Shown here piece after piece: positions 7,624-60,827 of a stretch of 64,000 bases of DNA. The stretch lies in NCBI GenBank assembly GCA_001824295.1, contig MHWY01000008.1, forward strand, positions 52,261 to 116,260, written 5' to 3'. How positions within the stretch are numbered: the stretch's first letter is position 1; each line of letters opens with the position of its first letter. The translations under genes were made by a program, and so were the position numbers. This DNA is from Candidatus Zambryskibacteria bacterium RIFOXYD1_FULL_40_13 (GTDB lineage Bacteria; Patescibacteriota; Minisyncoccia; Phycocordibacterales; DATDWN01). The notes under the pieces were generated by a model. The model saw nothing but the letters and a program-made list of their open reading frames with translations. It was not told the DNA's origin and searched no databases.

Positions 7624-9375
7624 TTATTCTGATATTACTCTTAATACTTCCTCAATGGTGGTTATGCCTTGTACGGCCTTAAATATTCCATCTTCGTACA
7701 TTGTAAGCATTCCTTCCTTTTCTGCTTGAAGCTGGATGTCATCTGATGTCCCTGATTTCAAAATAATTTCTTTTATAGTTGGTGAAACCTTCAAAATCTC
7801 ATGAATTCCAACTCTCCCAGAAAAACCATCTTCAGATGAAACATCTTTCTTTATTCTCCAAAAAGGAACCTTATCCCAGGTGTCCGACTTTTCGACAACC
7901 TTTTCTTCCTTGAGTGTCTTAAGTACCTTGTCCAGATTGATAGACCTTCCAAGTGTATCTAGTTCTGCTTTTGATAGAAAATATTTTTCTTTCTGATCGG
8001 TCAGCTTTCTGACAAGCCTTTGTCCAATAATTATATTAATTGTTGATACAAGTAAAAATGGCTCAACTTTCATATCAATTAACCTTGGTATGGTTCCAGC
8101 AGCTGAATTGGTGTGAAGGGTGGACAGAACCACGTGTCCAGTAAGTGCCGCGTTGACAGCAAGAGAAGCGGTCTCGTTATCACGAATTTCACCAACCATA
8201 ATTATATCCGGATCTTGACGAACAAGAGTACGAAGTCCATTTGCAAAAGTAAATCCAATCTCTGGACGAACCTGTGTTTGATTAATCCTTTTCATCTGAT
8301 ACTCAATAGGATCTTCAATGGTTGAAATGTTAAGATCGGGAGTATTCAAAATATCTAAAATTGTATATAAGGTTGTTGTTTTTCCTGAACCAGTCGGACC
8401 AGTAGTCAAAATCATTCCTGTTGTTGATTTCACCGCCTTGTGTATTCTCTCCAGTCCCTCACCATGAAAAGAAAGGTACTCTAAAGTAAACCCCGAAACA
8501 TTTTCACGGAGGAGTCGCATCACAACCTTTTCACCATAATAGGTTGGCAAGGTGGAGACACGGAAAGATACCTTTTCGCCATCTGAGTCAATCTTAAATC
8601 TGCCGTCCTGAGGAAGACGTTTTTCGTCAAGCTTAAGACTTGATAATACTTTTATGCGGGCAACTACACTTGGAGCCATGTTTTTTGGTAATATCATGGC
8701 ATCGTGCAACAAACCATCAAGCCGATATCTGACCAATAATTCATGTTCCTGGGGCTCAATGTGAATATCAGAAGCATTTTGTAATATTGAATGCTTTAAT
8801 AGAGTATCTACAATACGAACGACTGGAACATCATCTGCTAATTTTCTAAGATTTTCTTCGCTTGTGTCAGACTCTGGATCATCAGCGATACTTTTTATTG
8901 AGTTAGCCTCTTTTTGAATTAAGTCTCCAAACTCCGCCTTGAGTGATTTCTGATATTGCAATATGGCGCTTTTCATTGAGTCCGTATCAGTAAGACGAGG
9001 AAGAATCTTTAGACCCACTTTCTTCTTTATAAAATCAATCGCTGTTAAGTCCTCTGTATCAAGCATGGCAACTTCAAGCGAAGTGTCGGTTTTTTTGAAG
9101 GCTACAATATTGTGATTACGAGCAATTGGTTCTGGAATAAGAGAAAGGACATCAAAAGGAAGTTTTTCTGTCTTGAGATTAACAAAAGGAATACCAAGGA
9201 TGTAGGCCTGCATACGACGAAGATCGTCTTCCGTCATCTTTCCTTTATTTACTAGTATTTTTCCAAGATTTCCACCGGTCTCTTTCTGTTCCTTCTCAGC
9301 AGTTTCAACATCTGCTCGTGAGACAAGCCCCGAGTCCAAGATAAATTCCTTTAATTGTGCTTCTTCAATATGCAT
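7624..9375 (-). CDS. pilB: Type IV pilus assembly ATPase PilB (GspE family)
   Basis: 583 aa; Walker A GPTGSGKTTTLYTIL; GspE-type ATPase core; N-terminal GspE_N-like region. Confidence 0.9.
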   Translation of the reverse strand: MHIEEAQLKEFILDSGLVSRADVETAEKEQKETGGNLGKILVNKGKMTEDDLRRMQAYILGIPFVNLKTEKLPFDVLSLIPEPIARNHNIVAFKKTDTSLEVAMLDTEDLTAIDFIKKKVGLKILPRLTDTDSMKSAILQYQKSLKAEFGDLIQKEANSIKSIADDPESDTSEENLRKLADDVPVVRIVDTLLKHSILQNASDIHIEPQEHELLVRYRLDGLLHDAMILPKNMAPSVVARIKVLSSLKLDEKRLPQDGRFKIDSDGEKVSFRVSTLPTYYGEKVVMRLLRENVSGFTLEYLSFHGEGLERIHKAVKSTTGMILTTGPTGSGKTTTLYTILDILNTPDLNISTIEDPIEYQMKRINQTQVRPEIGFTFANGLRTLVRQDPDIIMVGEIRDNETASLAVNAALTGHVVLSTLHTNSAAGTIPRLIDMKVEPFLLVSTINIIIGQRLVRKLTDQKEKYFLSKAELDTLGRSINLDKVLKTLKEEKVVEKSDTWDKVPFWRIKKDVSSEDGFSGRVGIHEILKVSPTIKEIILKSGTSDDIQLQAEKEGMLTMYEDGIFKAVQGITTIEEVLRVISE

Positions 9376-9383
9376 GAGAAAAA

Positions 9384-9418
9384 TTTCTAATTTCTAATTT
9401 CTAATTTCTAATTTCTAA
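9384..9418. repeat. Heptanucleotide tandem repeat (TTTCTAA)x5 in divergent pilB/nusA intergenic region
   Basis: Read directly: tttctaatttctaatttctaatttctaatttctaa, immediately upstream (antisense side) of the pilB start. Confidence 0.9.
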
Positions 9419-17784: not shown

Positions 17785-17958
17785 GATCTTGCCACGCAAC
17801 CCGCCCGTCACGGAGACCGCCCTGTCTCCCAGACGAGGCGGTTTTCCATATCAAATTTTACTATTTTTCACTTTCTGCTATACTGCAAACGAGTCTAAGG
17901 TCTACAAAGTCAAAGTCCCCAAAGTTGGTTTTAACTTTATAAACTTTCAACTAAAATT

Positions 17959-30207: not shown

Positions 30208-31149
30208 TTAGCTCTTGTTATGAAACTTCTTGTGGATGTCACGGAGGTGTTTGTCAGTCACATGTGTATATATCTGTGTGGTAACAATACTTGAGTGTCC
30301 GAGCATGGCTTGGACGGAACGCAAGTCCGCCCCATTGCCGAGTAAATCTGTGGCAAAAAGGTGTCGTATTGTATGGGGTGTAACCTTTTTTGATATTCCA
30401 GCTTTGATTGCATGCTGTTTTACAATCCTCTCAATTGATCTGTTGTTCAGAAATCCATATTCTCTCGTACTGTTACTTTTAAAACTTTTTTCATCAACGG
30501 GGGTAAATAGGGCGTCACTAATATCCTTGCGTGCCTTCAAATATGCCCTGACACATTTCTTTGCCTCGTCAGAAAGGAAAACCACGCGAACCTTGCCCCC
30601 CTTACCACGAACAGACAGCTCGTCAGAATTAAGGTTTATGTCTCGTGTTAGAGACCGGAGCTCGGAAACACGAAGACCAGTAGAAAACAGCAGTTCGAGA
30701 ATGGCTTTGTCTCGCAAATCTTTCAGATTGCTCCCGTTGGGGGAATTGAGCATACGAGAGAGTTCCTCTGGAGTGATAAGGTCAAGAGACCTCTCGGAAA
30801 CCTTTGCTAGTTCTATCCTCTCGGCAGGCATGGTTTTAATTTCCTGCCTAGCTAGATATTTTAAAAAGGCCCGAAGAGCGATGAGATAGTAGTTCTGAGT
30901 TTTTCTGGACAATGTTTCATCGTTTCTCTTGCTGTGACCGGTCGGTTGCCTGTTGAGCCAGAGACGATACTGACGAACTACCTCATCCTTTATGTCGGCT
31001 GGGTTGTCAGTCTTGATGAAGTTCAAAAAACGAGTCAAATAGTGGTCATAATTCTCAACAGTTTTCACCGAACGGCCTCGTTCTATTTCTATGTATTCAA
31101 GAAACTGTTGTTTGAGTTGTTTGAGTGAAGACATGAAAATAGTTATCAA
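30208..31149 (-). CDS. Tyrosine site-specific recombinase, XerC/XerD family
   Basis: 313 aa; HTIRHLFATDLLGNGADLRSVQAMLGHSSIVTTQIYTHV C-terminal catalytic region (R..H..R..Y). Confidence 0.85.
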   Translation of the reverse strand: MITIFMSSLKQLKQQFLEYIEIERGRSVKTVENYDHYLTRFLNFIKTDNPADIKDEVVRQYRLWLNRQPTGHSKRNDETLSRKTQNYYLIALRAFLKYLARQEIKTMPAERIELAKVSERSLDLITPEELSRMLNSPNGSNLKDLRDKAILELLFSTGLRVSELRSLTRDINLNSDELSVRGKGGKVRVVFLSDEAKKCVRAYLKARKDISDALFTPVDEKSFKSNSTREYGFLNNRSIERIVKQHAIKAGISKKVTPHTIRHLFATDLLGNGADLRSVQAMLGHSSIVTTQIYTHVTDKHLRDIHKKFHNKS

Positions 31150-31219
31150 GTAGAAAGTTAAAAGTTATCAAGTTAATGCATAAATTATAACATGAAATCA
31201 TGTCGCACAATATTTTTAG

Positions 31220-31911: not shown

Positions 31912-32267
31912 GGACTCCTCATTAATAATTTCTTTCTTATTTGTCTCTTTCAGAGAGACACGCATAAATTCTTGCTAGAATTTTGCTTGAGTTCGTGCCG
32001 TCGCACTCACTAGTCTCTCCTCAAGTGACAAAACGACAAAATTATTAATTCGTCGTTAGTAGTTGGGTGTTTGTGATATAATTCTATTGTCGATTTTTTA
32101 TATTTGAATTCTTTTTTACTTTATTAACTTTACAAACTTTATAACTTTTAACTTAACAACATGTCAGTTATTAAACACCCCAGTACTAGAGCAAAGCTCA
32201 GTACGGGGCAGGAAGTGCTATTATTAGTTTAAGTAAGTTATTTATTCTTTAATTTTTATATACATTT

Positions 32268-32807
32268 ATGAGTGTAATTAAACACAAAAATCAGCGCGTT
32301 GGTATCTTTATTGATACACAAAACTTATACCATTGCGCAAAAAATATTTATGGCGCGAAGGTAAACTTCGACCAAGTAGTCAAAGACGGTCTAGCAGGAA
32401 GACAACTTATACGAGCTGTGGCTTATGTCATAACCACAGAGGCTGGGGACGAGAAAAACTTTTTTGAAGCACTAGAGAAAATGGGCATCGAAACGAAAAC
32501 AAAAAACCTCCAGATATTCTCTGGTGGTGCTAAAAAGGGGGATTGGGATGTTGGACTTGCTGTTGATGCAATAAAACTTGCACCAAAACTTGATGCAGTC
32601 ATCCTTGTAACGGGTGACGGCGACTTTGTTCCACTTGTAGAATACCTCCAGGTCAACGAAGGTTGTCAGGTAGAAGTTGTGTCGTTTGGTAAGTCTTCTT
32701 CGGCAAAACTTATTGAGGCTAGTGACGACTTCATTGACCTAGATGATAACCCGAGAAAATATCTAATCGGTTTCGGGGCAAACAAACGACCACGCAGAAC
32801 AATGTAA
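32268..32807 (+). CDS. NYN-domain (LabA-like/DUF88) protein
   Basis: 179 aa; VGIFIDTQNLYHCAK ... AVILVTGDGDFVPLV. Confidence 0.7.
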   Translation: MSVIKHKNQRVGIFIDTQNLYHCAKNIYGAKVNFDQVVKDGLAGRQLIRAVAYVITTEAGDEKNFFEALEKMGIETKTKNLQIFSGGAKKGDWDVGLAVDAIKLAPKLDAVILVTGDGDFVPLVEYLQVNEGCQVEVVSFGKSSSAKLIEASDDFIDLDDNPRKYLIGFGANKRPRRTM

Positions 32808-48088: not shown

Positions 48089-48094
48089 GATAAA

Positions 48095-48204
48095 CATACG
48101 AATATGCGAATAATGCAAATATACGAATGGATACGAATGAAAGGGCGCCTCTTTTGTATTATTCGTAGTCATTCGCATCATTCGTTAATTCGTATATTCG
48201 TATG
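48095..48204. repeat. Palindromic ACGAAT/ATTCGT-rich intergenic element, copy 2 (right arm overlaps the rsmA start codon)
   Basis: acatacgaatatgcgaataatgcaaatatacgaatggatacgaat ... attcgtagtcattcgcatcattcgttaattcgtatattcgtatg; homologous to 26911-27021. Confidence 0.8.
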
Positions 48205-54280: not shown

Positions 54281-56410
54281 ATGCGTAAATTTTTTCCATA
54301 TATTTTAATAATAATTATTTTGTTTGGACTGTTTAGCCCGCTAAGTAATGTCTCCGCTGATGTAGCAAGTGTTGTAAACTATCTACTCCCTGCCCCAAAA
54401 GCGGGTGAGTGTTCAATTCTAAGTGGAGAAGGTATATGGAATTGTTTTGGGTGGGTTGGTGAAAGAATCGCCTACTATGCCATACTAGTACCCGCTTCGT
54501 GGCTAGTCTGGTTCTCTGGTATGCTTCTTGATTTTGTTATTAACTGGACTGTTGTGGGTATGAGGGAACATGTTGCCGAAATGACAGGAATAAATACTGC
54601 ATGGAAAGTTGTTCGCGACATCATGAACATTGCTTTTATATTTCTCTTAGTATACGAAGGTATAAAAACAATCCTAGGATTAAGCGAACTAAAAGAAATA
54701 AAGAAGTTTATAAGTATGGTTATCTTAGCTTCTCTGCTTGTAAACTTTAGTTTGTTTTTTACAAAGGTGATGATAGACGCATCCAACATTGTAACTGTTG
54801 GGATTTACAATGCGATTATAGATACCGATAAATTCTCAATCCACGGGCAGACAAATGAGATTGGCGGGTTATCTGTGCCATTTATGAATGCTGTCGGTGT
54901 TACGGGTTTCTACTCAGCACAAACCTTTGGTGAGGTGTCAGCAGACGCGGGTGGCCATAGTAACGCGATGATTTTCTATATTGGTGGGGCGGTTATTTTA
55001 GTAATACTCTCTTTTGTTTTCTTTGCAGTCGCAACCATGTTTGCTATTAGATATGTTACTTTACTGATTCTCCTTATGCTGTCCCCGGTTGCTTATATGG
55101 GAATGGCACTGCCTTTTGTTAAACCATATGCCACAAAATGGTGGAAGGCCCTGAATAGCCAACTACTTTTCGCTCCTATTTATATGATAATGACTTCGGT
55201 TGTTCTAACCCTTATGACAAGTGAGAACTTTCTTAAGAGTAGCGGTAGTTGGGATGGTTTGGTTAAGGGTGGCAGTACGGCACCTGGAGGACTCGGACTT
55301 ATATTTAACTTCTTTGTTGTCATTGCTCTAGCCATCGCTTCTTTGGTCATTTCAAAAAGTACTTCGGTAGATGGGTCAAATTACATCAAAGACGCAACGA
55401 CCAAGTTTTCTGCCTTTGCCGGTGGGGCTGTTATGAATAGTGCAGGAAGAGTAGGAAGGGGTAGTGTCGGTAGGGTTGGGGACATGGTCACAAACAGCGA
55501 AACCGCAAAAAACATGGCAACATCCCAAGGACATTGGTACTCTGGTTTTAATAGAACCGTGGGTAAGGTTGCACTAAAGACAGGAAACAAGGCAGCAACA
55601 AGTACATTTGATGCAAGAAATACCGGTGCTTTTGGAATGCTATCAAGTTCAACAGATGTAAAATTTGGAAAAGGGGCCGATGCTAAGAAGGTAAACTTCC
55701 AGAAAGACCTTGAAGCCAAAGCAACCAAACAGGCAGATTATGCAAAACTATTAAAACCTTCTGACACAGCAAAAGAAAGGGTAACTGCCGAGGAGGAGGA
55801 AAAAGTGAGAATAGCTGATGCACAACACGCTAACGCACAAACAGCACTTGATGCATTAAACAAGAAACGGAAAATGCTTGAGGAAAAAAGAAACAACGCA
55901 AGCGGTGTTATGGATCGCCTTGACATTCAAAAAGAAATTGATGCATTAAACAAAGAAATTCAAACAAAGAATGCTGGGGTAGCAAAGTTAAAAACCGCAA
56001 GTGACGCCGCAGTAAAGGCAAAAGAGGGCGCAGAAAAAGAGATGGCTGGGTTGTGGGAAAAAAGAGTTAATGCTTATGCATCAACCTTTAGTGATGAATC
56101 TGGTGTAGCAAAAACAGGTAGATACATAGCAAATATACTTAAGGCTGGCGGGGTAGCGGGGGCAGGACTATCACTTGGCTTTGGAGGTGTGGTAAGCGGA
56201 ATGGGTGGCGCTTCTGTAATAACAACTAAAGGGGATAAAAAGGTAATAGCAAGAAAAATAAAAGGGGTAATAAAAGACAAAAAAACAAAAATGACAAAAG
56301 AGGAGCGCAAGGAGTTAATAGACAAACTTGCAAATGCTGAGGATTCGGATGAGCCAGCACCCGTTGATACACCAGCACCAGAAACACCTCCGGCCCCACC
56401 AACAACATAA
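54281..56410 (+). CDS. Polytopic membrane protein, VirB6/TrbL-like, with C-terminal coiled-coil and Pro-rich tail
   Basis: 709 aa; signal peptide + >=6 TM; long Lys/Ala/Glu-rich coiled coil; PAPVDTPAPETPPAPPTT tail; position in the T4SS-like cluster. Confidence 0.35.
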   Translation: MRKFFPYILIIIILFGLFSPLSNVSADVASVVNYLLPAPKAGECSILSGEGIWNCFGWVGERIAYYAILVPASWLVWFSGMLLDFVINWTVVGMREHVAEMTGINTAWKVVRDIMNIAFIFLLVYEGIKTILGLSELKEIKKFISMVILASLLVNFSLFFTKVMIDASNIVTVGIYNAIIDTDKFSIHGQTNEIGGLSVPFMNAVGVTGFYSAQTFGEVSADAGGHSNAMIFYIGGAVILVILSFVFFAVATMFAIRYVTLLILLMLSPVAYMGMALPFVKPYATKWWKALNSQLLFAPIYMIMTSVVLTLMTSENFLKSSGSWDGLVKGGSTAPGGLGLIFNFFVVIALAIASLVISKSTSVDGSNYIKDATTKFSAFAGGAVMNSAGRVGRGSVGRVGDMVTNSETAKNMATSQGHWYSGFNRTVGKVALKTGNKAATSTFDARNTGAFGMLSSSTDVKFGKGADAKKVNFQKDLEAKATKQADYAKLLKPSDTAKERVTAEEEEKVRIADAQHANAQTALDALNKKRKMLEEKRNNASGVMDRLDIQKEIDALNKEIQTKNAGVAKLKTASDAAVKAKEGAEKEMAGLWEKRVNAYASTFSDESGVAKTGRYIANILKAGGVAGAGLSLGFGGVVSGMGGASVITTKGDKKVIARKIKGVIKDKKTKMTKEERKELIDKLANAEDSDEPAPVDTPAPETPPAPPTT

Positions 56411-56414
56411 AAAT

Positions 56415-57371
56415 ATGAACGAAGATATATTAAAAGACCAACCAGAATATGTAAAAAACTTACCCAAGCCCATCCAAGACTTTATATTTAATAGTGCCTG
56501 GAGTGAAAGGGTAGAAGAGATAGCAAAAAAATATACACTCAATGAAACCCAGACGGAGGACTTGGTAGATAATGTACTGCTTCTACTCATCGGTCTATTA
56601 GAACCAAAAGAGCTTCTCGGCACAATCATTGCTGAGCTGAATATTTCGCAACTCTTGGCTGAACAACTAGTAGATGATCTAGAAGTACGGGTCTTTGACT
56701 ATGCTCTAAAAAGCATGCAAAACAAAGAAAAAGGGCTTATTCTCCCAGCTGAAAACACCAAATCAGAGATGCCTCCTGTGCCAACCACACCCAAGAGCGT
56801 TCTCGATATTCAAAACGACCTACCAGAGATAAGGCCAGAAATTACTCCATTGGTTGAGCTAGGGGAGACTGCTCACACAAACCCCGTGCTAACCACACAA
56901 AAAGAGGCAACGCCACAAAGGGTCTATAAGTACGGACCGCAAGACCCCGTGAAAACTGAACAGGTGGCACCAATACATATTCCAGAGTCACCAAAGCTTT
57001 CTCCCGAGCAAATTCAAAAACCTTTTTCCGTACCGCGATATATTGGTGAAGATGGTGAGGTTAAACCAGAAACAGAAATGCTACAAAAGCCAGCACGAAT
57101 AAGTTACGGCGGAACTTCCACTACCAGCGAATTACCAGAAGCAGAATCATTTATGGACCTAAATACTGGCGGGGAAATGAAAAAGACCGCTTATATACCA
57201 AGTTACAACAAAACACAGCCCGAAGAACCAGCAAAACCGCAAGAGATAAAAGCAACAGAAACCAAACCAGTTGCCGAGGTTAAACCAGAAGAACCACCGA
57301 AAATACCAGAACCCATCACACCGCCAGTTAAAAGATATGACGTTGACCCATACAGAGAACCGTTGGAGTAG
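56415..57371 (+). CDS. Hypothetical Pro/Glu-rich protein (start moved to MNEDILKDQ)
   Basis: The longer ORF at 56328 overlaps the preceding gene by 80 nt; the ATG at 56415 follows the stop at 56410. Confidence 0.4.
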   Translation: MNEDILKDQPEYVKNLPKPIQDFIFNSAWSERVEEIAKKYTLNETQTEDLVDNVLLLLIGLLEPKELLGTIIAELNISQLLAEQLVDDLEVRVFDYALKSMQNKEKGLILPAENTKSEMPPVPTTPKSVLDIQNDLPEIRPEITPLVELGETAHTNPVLTTQKEATPQRVYKYGPQDPVKTEQVAPIHIPESPKLSPEQIQKPFSVPRYIGEDGEVKPETEMLQKPARISYGGTSTTSELPEAESFMDLNTGGEMKKTAYIPSYNKTQPEEPAKPQEIKATETKPVAEVKPEEPPKIPEPITPPVKRYDVDPYREPLE

Positions 57372-57477
57372 TTCATAAAGTCTATAAAGTCAAAAGTTTT
57401 TAAAGTAAAACACAATAAATGCTATACTTCTTAAGACTTTATGAACTTTATAACTTTACAAACTTTATAACTCTGCC

Positions 57478-57912
57478 ATGCGCTATCAAGTACCCCAATT
57501 TATTGAAATAGAAGACAAAATAATAGGTCCTCTAACCTTAAAGCAATTCGTATACTTAGTTGGTGGAGCTGGCATGTCTTTTATCATGTACAACTTCTTG
57601 CCGTTAATTGTTGCACTGTTGCTAATTGCCATTATTATTCCAATTTCTCTTGCCCTAGCTTTCTATAAAATAAACAATAAACCTTTTATTGATTTTATGG
57701 AATCTGCCTTCGCGTTCTATACAAAACAAAATCTATACATCTGGAAAAAAGAAGAGAAGATTGTTGAGGCAAAAAAAGCAGAGGCAACCACAGAAGCCCA
57801 AGTTTATGTACCAAGACTGTCTGATAGCAAGCTAAAAGAGTTGTCGTGGTCACTTGATATCAACGAAAATCTCAATCCACTTACTGGAGAAGATGGAAAG
57901 AGTACGAGATAA
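57478..57912 (+). CDS. PrgI-family / VirB3-like small membrane protein
   Basis: 144 aa; VPQFIEIEDKIIGPLTLKQFVYLVGGAG followed by two TM helices; lies upstream of VirB4 as in Gram-positive T4SS. Confidence 0.5.
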   Translation: MRYQVPQFIEIEDKIIGPLTLKQFVYLVGGAGMSFIMYNFLPLIVALLLIAIIIPISLALAFYKINNKPFIDFMESAFAFYTKQNLYIWKKEEKIVEAKKAEATTEAQVYVPRLSDSKLKELSWSLDINENLNPLTGEDGKSTR

Positions 57913-57949
57913 ATAAATTTTGGTTTAGGACTATGTTATAATCATCAAT

Positions 57950-58588
57950 ATGGCTGTAAATTCCAAAGCAACACAAGAGTTTGTCCCAATAAAAGAAGTG
58001 CGTGATGGCATTGTCGTCTTGAAAGATGGTTCAATGCGAGGGATTGTTCTGTCTTCCTCTGTAAACTTTTCCTTGAAATCAGAAGATGAGAGAAATGCCA
58101 TAATAATGCAATTCCAAGATTTTTTAAACTCTTTGGACTTTGTTGTCCAAATCTGTGTGGAGTCAAGAAGGCTAGATATTAGGCCATATATTGCACTTTT
58201 GGAAGAAAGGTATAAAGAGCAAGTAAACGACTTAATGAAGATACAAACCCGTGAATATATTGAGTTTATTAAAAAATTTACAGAATCCACAAATATAATG
58301 ACAAAAAGTTTCTTTATTGTTGTATCTTATGACCCAGCAATGATTAATGTTAAGGGCGGAGTAGCTGGAGGATTTTTTAAGAAAAAAACCGCGGCAGAAG
58401 AGCTGGAAAATAAACGGGCAAGTTTTGAAGAAAACAGAACACAGCTTGAACAAAGGGTCTCTGTTGTTGAGCAAGGTCTGTCACGATGTGGAATAAGAGT
58501 GGTAAGACTTGGAACAGAAGAGGTGGTAGAGTTATTTTATAAGATATTTAATCCAGGAGACACAGAGAAACCAATTAAGATTTCATAG
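57950..58588 (+). CDS. VirB4 N-terminal-domain-like protein (possible detached N-terminal part of the VirB4/PrgJ ATPase)
   Basis: 212 aa; VPIKEVRDGIVVLKDGSMRGIVLSSSVNFSLKSEDERNAIIMQFQDFLNSLDFVVQICVESRRLD resembles the N-terminal region of long Gram-positive VirB4 homologues. Confidence 0.4.
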   Translation: MAVNSKATQEFVPIKEVRDGIVVLKDGSMRGIVLSSSVNFSLKSEDERNAIIMQFQDFLNSLDFVVQICVESRRLDIRPYIALLEERYKEQVNDLMKIQTREYIEFIKKFTESTNIMTKSFFIVVSYDPAMINVKGGVAGGFFKKKTAAEELENKRASFEENRTQLEQRVSVVEQGLSRCGIRVVRLGTEEVVELFYKIFNPGDTEKPIKIS

Positions 58589-58631
58589 TTTGTAAAGTTA
58601 AAAGTTTTTAAAGTTTATAAAGTAAAATACA

Positions 58632-58976
58632 ATGAAAATTGAAAGATTTGAAGATATCATAGCTTGGCAAAAAGGAAAAATGTTGGCCGTTGATATATAT
58701 GAGTGTTTCAAACCCTGTAAAGACTTTAGTTTTCGAGATCAGATTCAAAGAGCGGTTATAAGTATTTCAAACAACATAGCTGAAGGTTTTGAAAGACAAA
58801 GTAATAAGGAACTATCAAAATTTTTATTTATTGCGAAAGGTTCTTGTGCAGAGGTTAGGTCAATGCTGTATATTGCGTTAGAATTAAAATACATAACAAA
58901 AAAGGATTTTAAGGGCTTTTACTTAACAAGTCAGGAAATTTCTAAAATTCTTTCTGGTCTTATTAAAACTTTATGA
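58632..58976 (+). CDS. Four-helix-bundle protein (23S rRNA intervening-sequence protein / DGR Avd family)
   Basis: 114 aa; RAVISISNNIAEGFERQSNKELSKFLFIAKGSCAEVRSMLYIALELKYI is the family hallmark. Confidence 0.8.
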   Translation: MKIERFEDIIAWQKGKMLAVDIYECFKPCKDFSFRDQIQRAVISISNNIAEGFERQSNKELSKFLFIAKGSCAEVRSMLYIALELKYITKKDFKGFYLTSQEISKILSGLIKTL

Positions 58977-59009
58977 ACCTTATAACTTTACAAACTTTAT
59001 AACTCTGCT

Positions 59010-60827
59010 ATGGGAATATTTGATTTTTTCAAAACAAAAAAAGAGGAACAGCGCGTCTCAACAATCCTTCCGCAGGAGATATATGACTCCAACTCCTTGG
59101 AATTGAAGGATATTATTGCTCCAAGTGCCCTAAAGATAACACCGAAAGAAATAAACTTGGGGGAAAAGGTTCTAAGAAGTTTCTTTGTTATCTCTTACCC
59201 GAGATATCTGAGCGAAAACTGGTTTGCCCCAATAATTAATCTAGACAAGGTGTTTGATGTTTCTATCTTTATTTCACCCATAGAAACAGCCCAGGTTCTC
59301 AAGACATTTCAAAAGAAAGTTGCGGAGGTACAAAGCCAGATAAACACCCGCGAAGCCAAGGGTTTGGTCAGAAATCCAATGCTTGATACCGCCTACCAAG
59401 ACCTAGAGAATCTCCGAGACCAACTGCAACAAGCTCAAGAAAAGCTTTTTGATGTTGGACTATATATCACAATATATGCCGAATCAAGTGATGCTTTAGA
59501 CAAAATCGAGTCAGAAATTAAGTCAATACTTGAATCAAAAATGGTTTATGTTAAACCAGCATTATTTCAGCAGGAGCAAGGATTCAAAACAACCATACCT
59601 CTCGGCACAGATACTTTGGAAGTTAAAAGCAAACTAAACTCATCTCCACTATCATCTCTCTTTCCTTTCGTCTCCTTTGACCTGACCTCTGACAAGGGAA
59701 TTCTATATGGAATAAACAGGCACAACTCTTCTCTTATTTTATTTGATAGATTCTCTTTGGAAAACTACAACTCTATAACTTTTGCAAAATCTGGTTCTGG
59801 AAAATCCTTCATGACAAAGCTAGAAATACTTCGTACTCTTATGTTTGATGCAGATGTTTTAGTTATAGACCCAGAGAATGAATACGAATACTTGGCCGAG
59901 GCTGTTGGTGGAAGATATTTTAATATTTCTCTAAACTCAGAACACCACATCAATCCATTTGAGCTGTCAGCTCCAGGAGAAGGGGAGTCATTTGCTAGTG
60001 TTTTGCGCTCAAACATAATCAACCTAGTTGGTTTGTTCCGTATTATGATGAACGGACTAACCCCAGAGGAAGACGCTATTATTGACCGCGCAATAACAGA
60101 GACATACGCACTGAAAGATATAACCGCCGACTCAAACTTTGAAAACGCAGAACCACCACTTATGTCTGACTTTGAACTTGTCCTCTCTGGTATGGAAGGC
60201 GGAGACTCACTAGCTCAACGCCTAACAAAATACACCAAGGGAACATGGGCTGGTTTTATTAATAGGCCAAGTAACGTAGATATAAACCAAAAATTCATCG
60301 TATTTTGTATACGTGATATGGAGGACGAGCTCAAACCGATAGCCATGTATATTATCATGCACTATATATGGAACATGATACGAAAGAAACTGAAAAAGAG
60401 ACTGCTTGTTATTGATGAGGCGTGGTTTATGATGAAATCAGATGATACCGCATCTTTCCTCTTGTCCCTAGCAAAGAGAGGAAGAAAATACTATCTCGGC
60501 CTTGCAACTATTACCCAAGATGTGGATGACTTCCTGAAATCTCCATATGGCCTACCCATTATCACCAACTCCTCTATTCAAATACTGCTAAAACAATCTG
60601 CAAGTACGGTAGATAAACTCCAAACAACATTCAACCTAACTGACGAAGAAAAGTACTTACTACTAGAGTCCGATGTGGGTGAGGGAATATTCTTTGCTGG
60701 TTTAAAACATGTTGCGATAAAAGTTATAGCATCCTACACCGAGGAACAAATCATCACCTCCGACCCATCACAGGTTTTGGCAATCAAGGCGGCAAAAAGA
60801 GACCTTGAAAACAGTGCTCAGCAATAA
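59010..60827 (+). CDS. VirB4/TrbE/PrgJ-family type IV secretion ATPase
   Basis: 605 aa; Walker A AKSGSGKSFMTK; Walker B LLVIDEAWFMM; CagE/TrbE/VirB N-terminal region (FFVISYPRYLSENWFAPIINLD). Confidence 0.8.
   Translation: MGIFDFFKTKKEEQRVSTILPQEIYDSNSLELKDIIAPSALKITPKEINLGEKVLRSFFVISYPRYLSENWFAPIINLDKVFDVSIFISPIETAQVLKTFQKKVAEVQSQINTREAKGLVRNPMLDTAYQDLENLRDQLQQAQEKLFDVGLYITIYAESSDALDKIESEIKSILESKMVYVKPALFQQEQGFKTTIPLGTDTLEVKSKLNSSPLSSLFPFVSFDLTSDKGILYGINRHNSSLILFDRFSLENYNSITFAKSGSGKSFMTKLEILRTLMFDADVLVIDPENEYEYLAEAVGGRYFNISLNSEHHINPFELSAPGEGESFASVLRSNIINLVGLFRIMMNGLTPEEDAIIDRAITETYALKDITADSNFENAEPPLMSDFELVLSGMEGGDSLAQRLTKYTKGTWAGFINRPSNVDINQKFIVFCIRDMEDELKPIAMYIIMHYIWNMIRKKLKKRLLVIDEAWFMMKSDDTASFLLSLAKRGRKYYLGLATITQDVDDFLKSPYGLPIITNSSIQILLKQSASTVDKLQTTFNLTDEEKYLLLESDVGEGIFFAGLKHVAIKVIASYTEEQIITSDPSQVLAIKAAKRDLENSAQQ

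What the first reader, a model, noticed from the sequence alone, without database searches (positions are those of the whole stretch)
57372..59012. VirB4 ATPase encoded in two pieces around a four-helix-bundle (IVS/Avd-family) gene cassette bounded by repeated ~40-nt motifs
The 212-aa ORF (57950-58588) carries the conserved N-terminal region seen in long Gram-positive VirB4/PrgJ homologues (..VNFSLKSEDE..FLNSLDFVVQI..SRRLD). The 605-aa ORF (59010-60827) carries the rest of VirB4 (Walker A/B). Between them lies a 114-aa four-helix-bundle protein of the family usually found inside 23S rRNA intervening sequences and as the DGR accessory protein Avd. The cassette is flanked on the left by tagtttgtaaagttaaaagtttttaaagtttataaagtaaaatacaATG and on the right by ctttatgaaccttataactttacaaactttataactctgctATG. 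The same pair of motifs occurs in an 'empty' configuration, without the ORF, at 57372-57480 directly upstream of the PrgI-like gene. This looks like a small insertion/cassette that has split, or modularised, an essential T4SS ATPase. It may be mobile or may act as a regulatory or trans-acting module.
Basis: partly seen in the sequence, partly recalled or inferred. Interest (0 to 1): 0.82.

Follow-up and report, generated by a model that had tools for sequence, protein, structure and literature searches.

The report
Mobile four-helix-bundle cassette between VirB4 genes
A 421-base cassette of the kind known from ribosomal-RNA "intervening sequences" (inverted-repeat arms around a small four-helix-bundle gene) sits in the few-base gap between two naturally separate genes of a secretion ATPase; it did not split that ATPase, but comparison with other genomes indicates that such cassettes move between protein-coding operons.

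Summary
The sequence features are real. The ORFs, the PF05635 four-helix-bundle (4HB) gene and both repeated motifs lie at the stated coordinates, and the repeats are far above chance.

The 212-aa and 605-aa pair is the normal, published TrsD + VirB4 arrangement of Patescibacteria. In 65 of 79 related genomes the two genes are separate and about 12 nt apart, so nothing was split.

What is new in this genome is a 421-nt insertion that fills that spacer:
- a left arm;
- a 4HB gene on the operon strand;
- a right arm. The arms are inverted arrays of 9-nt units (ACTTTAYRA).

The "empty" copy upstream of PrgI is a decayed cassette. A relative, L084, has the intact cassette at that site with the same arms.

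Twenty of 20 PF05635 genes in 81 genomes sit at three junctions of this operon, all on the operon strand, and their lineages do not follow the sites. One genome carries an identical copy at two unrelated loci. The 4HB gene is under purifying selection, and the arms are conserved beyond synonymous saturation.

The right-arm array also occurs alone, 5-8 nt before the start codons of many housekeeping genes, so it probably supplies the downstream gene's expression signal.

The architecture matches rRNA intervening sequences (IVS) but lies outside rRNA. The mobility mechanism and any RNase III processing are inferred only.

The parts
57369..57477 (+). Decayed, ORF-less 4HB cassette between the upstream gene's TAG stop (57369-57371) and the PrgI ATG. 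Left arm 57370-57406; loop 57407-57435; right arm 57436-57477. The loop holds a remnant of the cassette's start region (GTAAAACACAATAAA, with ATG changed to ATA), an extended -10-like TGCTATACT at 57420-57428, and a remnant of the ORF 3' end (CTTCTTAAG).
   Evidence: Searches show the hairpin (z -3.5). Searches show that L084 carries an intact 4HB cassette at the same junction with the same flanks and arms. One search shows that most relatives have 1-20 nt here. One search gives the promoter-like match with TG.
57478..57912 (+). PrgI/VirB3-like membrane protein gene
   Evidence: PF12666, E 8e-11
57934..57942 (+). TGTTATAAT extended -10-like box, 7 nt before the ATG of the 212-aa gene (probable leaderless promoter)
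   Evidence: Read from the sequence. The same geometry occurs at many genes of the window and in relatives.
57950..58588 (+). TrsD-family gene: a stand-alone homologue of the VirB4 N-terminal domain (212 aa)
58589..58631 (+). Left arm of the cassette: an inverted array of AAAGTnnAT units running from the TAG stop to the 4HB ATG
   Evidence: D1, I1; the same arm family in all members of this 4HB subfamily
58632..58976 (+). Four-helix-bundle protein gene (PF05635 / TIGR02436), 114 aa. Its last two codons and its stop codon (ACT TTA TGA) form the first unit of the right arm.
   Evidence: PDB 2GSC, E 1.7e-10; pN 0.14-0.24 against pS 0.7-0.8
58968..59009 (+). Right arm: an array of ACTTTAYRA units ending in TATAAC, 6 nt before the VirB4 ATG
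   Evidence: 93% identical to 57427-57480; the same array upstream of many genes, with modal spacing of 6 nt
59010..60827 (+). VirB4-type ATPase gene (605 aa), colinear with positions 183-733 of 752 of the CD1110-family VirB4 profile
   Evidence: (PDB 4AG5, E 3e-40)
32118..32160 (+). Third copy of the right-type array, with no left arm and no 4HB gene, directly before an ATG
48089..48201 (+). A different stop-to-start hairpin (44-nt arms of CGAAT-type units) filling the spacer between a UvrD-like helicase gene and ksgA/rsmA. It has the same architecture but belongs to a different arm family.
   Evidence: (I1)

Best explanation
The window comes from a Patescibacteria (Zambryskibacteria-like) genome. 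Its T4SS operon encodes VirB4 in the lineage's normal two-gene form: a 212-aa TrsD-type protein homologous to the VirB4 N-terminal domain, and a 605-aa ATPase. These two genes are normally 1-15 nt apart.

In this genome a 421-bp cassette has been inserted into that spacer. It consists of a left arm, a PF05635 four-helix-bundle gene on the operon strand, and a right arm. The arms are inverted arrays of 9-nt units and run exactly from the upstream stop codon to the downstream start codon.

The cassette belongs to a family with the anatomy of rRNA intervening sequences (terminal inverted repeats, short tandem repeats before the ORF, a 4HB ORF in the loop, about 420-430 nt). These family members live in stop-to-start spacers of protein-coding operons. 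The family is mobile. Copies decay by losing the ORF, leaving about 100-nt hairpins; the copy upstream of PrgI is one of these.

Shown here: insertion, family membership, mobility, decay, purifying selection on the protein, and sequence constraint on the arms.

Inferred:
(a) The cassette is transcribed with the operon.
(b) It is tolerated because its right arm supplies the expression signal for the downstream gene. This signal is an array that ends 5-8 nt before the ATG in a genome with no Shine-Dalgarno sites. It acts either as a -10 box for a leaderless mRNA or as a ribosome-binding substitute.
(c) In read-through transcripts the arms pair and may be cut by RNase III, as in rRNA IVSs.
(d) The 4HB protein serves the element (arm binding or mobility) rather than the T4SS.
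For: Ancestral split:
- about 8000 homologues; the best 120 are all 210-224 aa.
- of 79 related loci, 65 have spacers of 35 nt or less (median 12), with a stop codon, a few nt, then ATG.
- TrsD profile match, and colinear matches of the two ORFs to VirB4 profiles.
- the predicted fold is closest to TrwK/VirB4.
- PMC12102498 reports TrsD as the most abundant T4SS component of Patescibacteria, next to VirB4 and essential in one strain.

Insertion and mobility:
- 19 further PF05635 genes lie at three junctions of the same operon in other genomes, and L070 has a PDDEXK_3 gene at the same junction. All are on the operon strand.
- 4HB lineages do not follow the sites. The window's copy at the TrsD|VirB4 junction is 72% identical to L013's copy at the PrgI junction, and L034 and L054 carry the two lineages in swapped positions.
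- an identical 4HB protein occurs at two unrelated loci on one contig. The shared DNA is 398 nt at 98% identity and covers the left arm, the ORF and the start of the right arm.
- the same subfamily, with the same arm sequences, sits beside unrelated genes in other classes.

Decay:
- L084 is the filled version of the window's ORF-less site.
- L072 carries a truncated 4HB gene.
- ORF-less hairpins occur at the same junctions.

Selection:
- pN is 0.14-0.24 while pS is 0.7-0.8 (saturated). The right arm stays about 85-100% identical between the same elements, and its 20-mer is exact in at least 120 metagenome contigs.

Expression signal:
- almost no Shine-Dalgarno sites; TGnTAnAAT lies 6-9 nt before many ATGs.
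- 46 of 82 arrays are followed by a long ORF in the sense direction, against 18 of 82 antisense. The genes include ribosomal-protein genes.
- the last TATAAC-like hexamer lies 5-8 nt before the ATG in 22 of 41 cases (mode 6).

IVS parallel:
- (PMC4990558): the Coxiella IVS is 428 nt, has a 28-bp terminal stem and tandem heptamers before the S23p ORF, and is excised by RNase III.
Against: - There is no sign of sense-strand RNA-specific selection on the stems. In 30 hairpins there were 34 G:U-type against 31 A:C-type mismatches and 92 transversions. The arms are only about 76-83% complementary. RNA pairing and RNase III cleavage therefore rest on analogy alone.
- No target-site duplication or recombinase could be identified, so the mobility mechanism is unknown.
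- The right-arm array is much commoner alone than with a 4HB gene (about 56 of 82 sites). It may be a host signal that the cassette lands next to, rather than part of the element.
- In the L090/L091 duplicate the right arms differ beyond 14 nt after the stop codon.
- TATAAC lacks the conserved T at -7 of a sigma-70 -10 box.
- The clustering of cassettes at three junctions of one operon is not explained by a purely selfish model.
Confidence: 0.72

Rival explanations
1. One reading: a formerly continuous virB4 gene was cut in two, or modularised, by insertion of the cassette.
For: The two ORFs are colinear with full-length VirB4 profiles and the cassette lies exactly between them.
Against: All 79 related genomes have two separate genes with a stop codon and a 1-35-nt spacer, whether or not a cassette is present. 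About 8000 homologues were found and the 120 best are stand-alone. A stand-alone TrsD family exists in Gram-positive plasmids. The arrangement is published (PMC12102498).
Confidence: 0.02
2. The arms are host elements and not part of the cassette. On this view the right array is a general promoter or leader of Patescibacteria genes, hairpins are host regulatory or attenuator structures, and a bare 4HB gene (with at most its left arm) inserts into or beside them, for example into hairpin loops as in rRNA helices.
For: The right array occurs alone upstream of many housekeeping genes and is far commoner than 4HB genes. In the L090/L091 duplicate, identity stops 14 nt into the right arm. Several arm families, with and without ORFs, coexist in one genome. 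rRNA IVSs also sit at the tips of pre-existing helices (PMC4990558).
Against: Relatives have no array at the TrsD|VirB4 junction, so the window's right arm there must have arrived with the cassette. It is 93% identical to the arm at the PrgI site, right up to the ATG. Arm sequence goes with 4HB subfamily across genomes and sites. The ORF-less copy keeps remnants of the ORF's start and end.
Confidence: 0.18
3. The 4HB protein is a functional accessory or regulator of the T4SS, recruited into the operon for that role.
For: All 20 PF05635 genes found in 81 genomes' loci lie at three junctions of the PrgI-TrsD-VirB4 stretch, always on the operon strand. The protein is under purifying selection.
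Against: About three quarters of related genomes have none. Position and 4HB lineage vary. The same subfamily with the same arms sits beside prfA, pth, Wzy/epimerase and dnaN genes. At the same junction L070 has an unrelated PDDEXK_3 gene instead.
Confidence: 0.05
4. The repeats are ordinary terminator or REP-like intergenic palindromes, and the 4HB gene is an unrelated neighbour.
For: Hairpins of several sequence families fill intergenic spacers in this and related genomes.
Against: No intrinsic-terminator-like site was found at 56300-59300. The arms run to the ATG, with no T-tract. Arms and ORF are duplicated together, and the same arm family accompanies the same 4HB subfamily in different genomes.
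Confidence: 0.03

Closest known systems
23S/16S rRNA intervening sequences (IVS) carrying an S23p/4HB ORF (Coxiella, Leptospira, Xanthomonas; also CPR rRNA insertions)
   Same: Same protein family (PF05635; PDB 2GSC homologue). Same size (421 against 428 nt). Terminal inverted repeats enclose the ORF, short tandem repeats precede the ORF start, and the ORF is on the host transcript's strand. ORF-containing and ORF-less versions both exist, and the distribution is sporadic (PMC4990558; PMC11270868).
   Different: Here the host transcript is a protein-coding operon, not rRNA (no rRNA in the window). The element spans from a stop codon to a start codon. Its right arm resembles an expression signal used by many genes. 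RNase III excision is untested.
TrsD + TrsE (pGO1/pSK41-type MPF-FATA conjugation systems) and the Patescibacteria T4SS described in PMC12102498
   Same: A stand-alone protein of about 200 aa, homologous to the VirB4 N-terminal part, is encoded next to a shorter VirB4, with PrgI/VirB3 upstream.
   Different: Nothing essential differs. The window is a member of this arrangement with an extra cassette in the spacer.
Correia / ERIC-type miniature inverted-repeat elements (from my own knowledge, not checked in the library)
   Same: Elements of about 100 nt with inverted-repeat ends, inserted in transcribed intergenic spacers. Such elements are reported to carry promoter-like boxes and to fold into RNA hairpins cut by RNase III. 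The ORF-less copies here (57369-57477; L012, L003, L014) look like this.
   Different: Here a protein-coding 'full-length' partner (the 4HB cassette) is identifiable. The arms are tandem arrays of 9-nt units. No TA target duplication could be shown.
Avd, the accessory protein of diversity-generating retroelements
   Same: Same 4HB superfamily; some cassette proteins in relatives also hit PF22296 bAvd weakly.
   Different: There is no reverse transcriptase and no template/variable repeat pair next to the gene. Its neighbours are PrgI, TrsD and VirB4.
23S_rRNA_IVP genes noted inside cas operons (PMC3936711)
   Same: A PF05635 gene wedged between two conserved operon genes, for example between cmr3 and cmr2.
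   Different: That paper read it as a functional association. No arms, mobility or decay series were described.

Membership tests
TrsD / VirB4 N-terminal-domain family (212-aa ORF) | Sequence homology to the TrsD profile and to the N-terminal part of VirB4 profiles | tested here: met
   NF041427 TrsD E 1.7e-8 (13-200 of 201); VirB4_plasma E 8.8e-12 (101-234 of 894); conju_CD1110 2-120 of 752; TIGR00929 4-178 of 792. All are below the full-length cut-offs, as expected for a fragment-sized protein. Homologues carry precomputed PF26593 TraC-like. The local Pfam copy gave no hit.
TrsD / VirB4 N-terminal-domain family (212-aa ORF) | Fold of the VirB4 N-terminal domain | tested here: met
TrsD / VirB4 N-terminal-domain family (212-aa ORF) | Stand-alone gene adjacent to virB4 and prgI/virB3 | tested here: met
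   PMC12102498
VirB4 ATPase (605-aa ORF) | P-loop ATPase domain of the VirB4/TraC type | tested here: met
   PF19044, E 3e-30; 4AG5 VirB4 C-terminal domain, E 3e-40; TrwK, E 3e-5; conju_CD1110, 380 bits against cut-off 325
PF05635 / TIGR02436 four-helix-bundle (S23p, IVS protein) | Profile match above the curated cut-off; conserved RxxxSxxxNxxE motif | tested here: met
   113.7 bits against 33.8; TIGR02436, 110 bits against 24; motif QRAVISISNNIAEG read; PDB 2GSC/2RLD homologues
rRNA intervening sequence (IVS) | Located inside a 16S or 23S rRNA gene | tested here: not met
   The flanks are protein-coding genes. Rfam finds no rRNA in the window and no RNA family at the locus.
rRNA intervening sequence (IVS) | Terminal inverted repeats that can form a stem enclosing the element, with an optional 4HB ORF on the transcript's strand | tested here: met
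   All 20 ORFs are co-oriented. The comparison is with PMC4990558.
rRNA intervening sequence (IVS) | Excision from the transcript by RNase III | not testable with these tools
   The only indirect test (G:U against A:C mismatches in 30 stems, 34 against 31) showed no RNA-specific signature.
DGR accessory protein Avd | Adjacent reverse transcriptase and template/variable repeat pair | tested here: not met
   The neighbours are PrgI, TrsD and VirB4. The repeats found are the arms, not TR/VR-type repeats. The rest of the window was not screened for an RT.
Miniature inverted-repeat element (ORF-less copy 57369-57477) | Short, non-coding, with terminal inverted repeats, multi-copy, derived from a longer coding element | tested here: met
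   derived from a 4HB cassette; about 22 similar ORF-less hairpins elsewhere
Miniature inverted-repeat element (ORF-less copy 57369-57477) | Target-site duplication and a known transposase partner | tested here: inconclusive
   No duplication could be defined at the junctions. No transposase lies nearby. The 4HB protein has no known catalytic activity.

The most novel reading that the evidence does not exclude
The 4HB gene plus its unit-array arms may be an autonomous class of mobile element. On this reading its protein, a pentameric nucleic-acid-binding barrel in solved homologues, recognises the tandem 9-nt units. The element targets stop-to-start junctions, or hairpin tips in rRNA. Its ORF-less hairpins and solitary right arrays have been domesticated as promoters or leaders for a sizeable share of genes in Shine-Dalgarno-less Patescibacteria. 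If so, the origin and mobility of rRNA intervening sequences, unexplained since about 1990, would become testable outside rRNA.
Probability: 0.2. Interest if true: 0.85.

Novelty: new variant of a known kind. Interest (0 to 1): 0.55.

Why it matters
The headline claim, a split VirB4, is already-known biology: TrsD + VirB4 of Patescibacteria. What remains is more useful than it first looks.

The 4HB "IVS protein" family is very large, and its function and means of spread have been open since the rRNA intervening sequences were described. Here the same architecture appears in protein-coding operons, with:
- a filled/empty/decayed series at orthologous sites;
- identical copies at two loci in one genome;
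- strong sequence constraint on the arms.

This gives defined element boundaries and concrete, cloneable substrates for testing RNase III processing, arm binding by the 4HB protein, and promoter or leader activity.

It also flags a conserved 9-nt-unit array in front of ribosomal-protein and other housekeeping genes. That array is a candidate general expression signal in bacteria that lack Shine-Dalgarno sites.

For annotation, a PF05635 gene inside an operon should not be read as a functional partner of its neighbours.

Tried and rejected
- **RNA-level selection on the stems.** In 30 hairpins, sense-strand G:U-type mismatches (34) did not exceed A:C-type mismatches (31), and transversions were common (92). 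The RNase III idea stays an analogy.
- **Rfam.** Nothing at the locus at E<=1 except noise. The window holds only four tRNAs. No rRNA lies next to 16 related loci.
- **Sequence profile of the 212-aa family against the PDB.** No meaningful hit. The fold search was needed.
- **Target-site duplication.** Junction comparisons gave no consistent duplication. A 'TA' reading works at the TrsD|VirB4 site but not at the PrgI site.
- **Promoter carried in the loop.** Several ORF-less hairpins at the PrgI|TrsD and PrgI-upstream junctions have GGGTATAAT in the loop, and the window has TGCTATACT. Hairpins at the TrsD|VirB4 junction lack it. It is therefore site-dependent, not a defining feature.
- **Intragenomic duplication as the source of two 4HB genes in one operon.** Rejected: copies in L034, L051 and L054 are only 22-37% identical to each other.
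- **Intrinsic terminator.** None predicted at 56300-59300.
- **Literature.** No paper was found that describes 4HB cassettes with arms in protein-coding operons. The library is limited, so this is not proof of novelty.

Full report
**Observation**

- 57478-57912 is a PrgI-family protein.
- 58632-58976 is a PF05635 '23S rRNA-intervening sequence protein' (E 6e-33), also TIGR02436 'four helix bundle protein'.
- 59010-60827 is a VirB4-type ATPase (PF19044; conju_CD1110 at 380 bits, above its cut-off; PDB 4AG5, E 3e-40).

The 212-aa ORF (57950-58588) has no hit in the local Pfam copy. It does match NCBIfam profiles over their N-terminal parts only: VirB4_plasma 101-234 of 894, conju_CD1110 2-120 of 752, and TIGR00929 4-178 of 792. 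It also matches the whole of the stand-alone TrsD/TraD family (13-200 of 201). The 605-aa ORF matches the remainder of the same VirB4 profiles (183-733 of 752; 265-725 of 792), so the pair is colinear with a full-length VirB4.

The two repeated motifs are real.
- The right motif is 93% identical over 54 nt.
- The left motif is 75% identical over 51 nt.
- No such match appeared in 100 shuffles.

The ORF-less copy folds as a hairpin (z -3.5). The arms around the 4HB gene pair with z -4.8.

**The split is ancestral and already described**

The 212-aa protein has about 8000 homologues. The best 120 are all 210-224 aa long and come from Zambryskibacteria, Paceibacterota and related groups.

I fetched 80 loci from different species. 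In all 79 that hold both genes, the two genes are separate.
- 65 have at most 35 nt between the last aligned residue of the first gene and the start of the second (median 12).
- 8 have 55-126 nt.
- 6 have 449-521 nt.

The short junctions read stop codon, 2-10 nt, ATG, and sometimes TAATG.

[quoted passage not shown] It is usually next to VirB4 and is essential in one cultivated strain (PMC12102498).

**The cassette is an insertion from a mobile family**

The window's 421 nt between TAG 58586-58588 and ATG 59010 replace that short spacer.

An HMM sweep of all ORFs in the 80 loci plus the whole window found 19 PF05635 genes, confirmed by Pfam. Counted per site, there are 20 copies including the truncated one in L072. 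All are on the operon strand and all lie at three junctions:
- upstream of PrgI: L013, L034, L046, L049, L052, L054, L065 and L072 (truncated);
- between PrgI and TrsD: L016, L022, L023, L040, L051;
- between TrsD and VirB4: the window, L025, L034, L051, L054, L068.

L070 has a PF13366 PDDEXK_3 gene at the TrsD|VirB4 junction instead.

Most cassettes are flanked by strongly complementary arms whose sequence is lineage-specific but always built from short tandem units (z -4 to -10).

4HB lineages do not follow the sites. The window's copy is 72% identical to L013's copy at the PrgI junction. L034 and L054 each carry two lineages, in swapped positions.

The window's 114-aa subfamily has thousands of members at 67-82% identity across several Patescibacteria classes. 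Its contexts include:
- a Wzy/epimerase junction;
- the PrgI junction (L084);
- prfA and pth junctions, where an identical protein occurs twice on one 121-kb contig;
- a dnaN-VirB4 junction.

The two copies on that contig share 398 nt at 98% identity, covering the left arm, the ORF and the first 14 nt after the stop codon. Every member examined carries the same AAAGTnnAT / ACTTTAnnA arms.

**The 'empty' site is a decayed cassette**

Most relatives have 1-20 nt between the conserved ...DPYREPxE stop and the PrgI ATG. L084 has a full cassette there, with the same flanks and almost the same arms as the window.

The window's loop (57407-57435) retains two remnants:
- the sequence that precedes and starts the ORF in the intact copy: GTAAAACACAATAAA against GTAAAATACAATGAAA, with ATG changed to ATA;
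- a 3' remnant ending in the shared ...AAGACTTTATGA.

ORF-less hairpins of 80-125 nt also occur at the same junctions in other genomes. L012's hairpin at the PrgI|TrsD junction is nearly identical in sequence to the window's arms. L072 shows an intermediate state, a 4HB gene truncated to half the profile.

**Selection**

Between members of the 114-aa subfamily, synonymous sites are saturated (pS 0.7-0.8) while pN is 0.14-0.24. The protein is therefore maintained by selection.

Over the same divergence the right arm stays about 85-100% identical. The arms are thus constrained in primary sequence, not only in pairing.

A test for sense-strand RNA pairing was negative: 34 G:U-type against 31 A:C-type mismatches, plus 92 transversions, in 30 hairpins.

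**What the right arm does**

The genome has almost no Shine-Dalgarno sites. Many genes have TGnTAnAAT 6-9 nt before the ATG, including the 212-aa gene (TGTTATAAT at 57934-57942).

Of 82 sites with the arm 20-mer:
- 4 have a 4HB ORF just upstream;
- about 22 are ORF-less hairpins;
- about 56 are solitary arrays.

In 46 of the 82, a long ORF starts within 120 nt in the sense direction, against 18 in the antisense control. These ORFs include the ribosomal proteins S13, L11, L20, L16, S14, L35, S8 and L13, as well as NusG, primase, RadA and TpiA.

The last TATAAC-like hexamer lies 5-8 nt before the ATG in 22 of 41 cases, with a mode of 6, as at both window copies. That spacing fits either a -10 box for a leaderless mRNA or a ribosome-binding substitute.
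- For the promoter reading: in one locus the array ends 9 nt before a tRNA-like 5' end.
- Against a canonical -10 box: there is no T at -7.

Either way, the cassette delivers an expression signal to the gene it has separated from its upstream partner. This is a plausible reason why it is tolerated in a tightly coupled, essential operon. This step is inference.

**Comparison with known systems**

The anatomy matches rRNA intervening sequences that carry an S23p ORF. The Coxiella element is 428 nt, has a 28-bp terminal stem and tandem heptamers before the ORF, and is excised by RNase III (PMC4990558). PF05635 genes also occur in CPR rRNA insertions (PMC11270868).

The defining location inside rRNA is not met here. 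I therefore file this as an IVS-type element in a new context, not as an IVS. It is not a DGR Avd, because there is no reverse transcriptase or TR/VR pair beside it. PF05635 genes between cmr genes were noted in 2013 without this interpretation (PMC3936711). I found no paper describing arms, mobility or a decay series in protein-coding operons, within the limits of the library.

**Verdict**

'VirB4 in two pieces' is ordinary for this phylum. The cassette is a real, recently mobile, IVS-type element, and its 'empty' twin is a relic.

The mechanism of movement, the role of the 4HB protein and any RNA processing remain inferred. Two points are unexplained:
- why these cassettes concentrate at three junctions of the T4SS operon;
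- whether the solitary arrays are host signals or domesticated relics.

Noticed in passing
window 48089-48201: A 113-nt hairpin fills the spacer from the TAA of a UvrD-like helicase gene to the ATG of ksgA/rsmA. It has 44-nt arms made of CGAAT-type units and a 22-nt loop, and the start codon lies inside the stem. The same unit family occurs in L024 (TrsD|VirB4 spacer) and flanks the PDDEXK_3 cassette of L070.
   Followed up: partly
window 32118-32290: A right-type array is followed by a 23-codon ORF starting MSVIKH, a small hairpin (CCCAGTACT...AGTACGGGG) and then the NYN-domain gene, which also starts MSVIKH but with different Ser and Val codons. L106 568-720 has a similar layout: the array, a duplicated 16-nt tRNA 5' fragment, a GC-rich hairpin, then the real tRNA-Lys.
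   Followed up: partly
window, all genes: The genome appears to lack Shine-Dalgarno sites: 1 of 48 upstream regions has a purine-rich match. About a dozen genes have TGnTAnAAT ending 6-9 nt before the ATG, which suggests widespread leaderless mRNAs.
   Followed up: partly
window 9376-9415 (minus strand): Five tandem GAAATTA heptamers lie directly upstream of the ATG of a PilB/T2SSE-type ATPase gene (7624-9375, minus strand). This is another unit-array leader of a different sequence.
   Followed up: no
window 17919-17958 and 31150-31189 (minus strand): Right-arm-like AACTTTnnAACTTT arrays lie upstream of clpP (17959) and of a XerC/D-type tyrosine recombinase gene (30208-31149, minus strand).
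   Followed up: no
L070 4698-5111: At the same TrsD|VirB4 junction, a PDDEXK_3 (GxxExxY-type) small gene flanked by strong inverted arms (duplex z -5.8) takes the place of the 4HB gene. A second small-protein family therefore uses the same cassette architecture.
   Followed up: partly
L067 3900-4000 and 4640-4738; L069 3860-3994: GC-rich hairpins (GTCATTCCCGCGAAAGCGGGAATC...) occupy two junctions of the same operon in one genome and recur in another genome. This is a separate multi-copy palindromic family (z -8 to -10).
   Followed up: no
L132 (metagenome contig Ga0105044_10205525): The gene order is dnaN, 4HB cassette, VirB4, with no TrsD gene between dnaN and the cassette. This is either a different operon layout or a rearrangement at the cassette.
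   Followed up: no
L054 5122-5514: The VirB4 homologue downstream of a 4HB cassette is called as a 130-aa ORF followed by a separate continuation. This may be a frameshift or an assembly error.
   Followed up: no
L104, L125, L141, L142 (loops of ORF-less hairpins): Several ORF-less hairpins keep an ATG in the loop (...AATGCATTCC...) in frame with the ACT TTA TAA units of the right arm. This gives a mini-ORF of about 10 codons that ends inside the arm. It could be a relic of the 4HB ORF or a coupling device.
   Followed up: no
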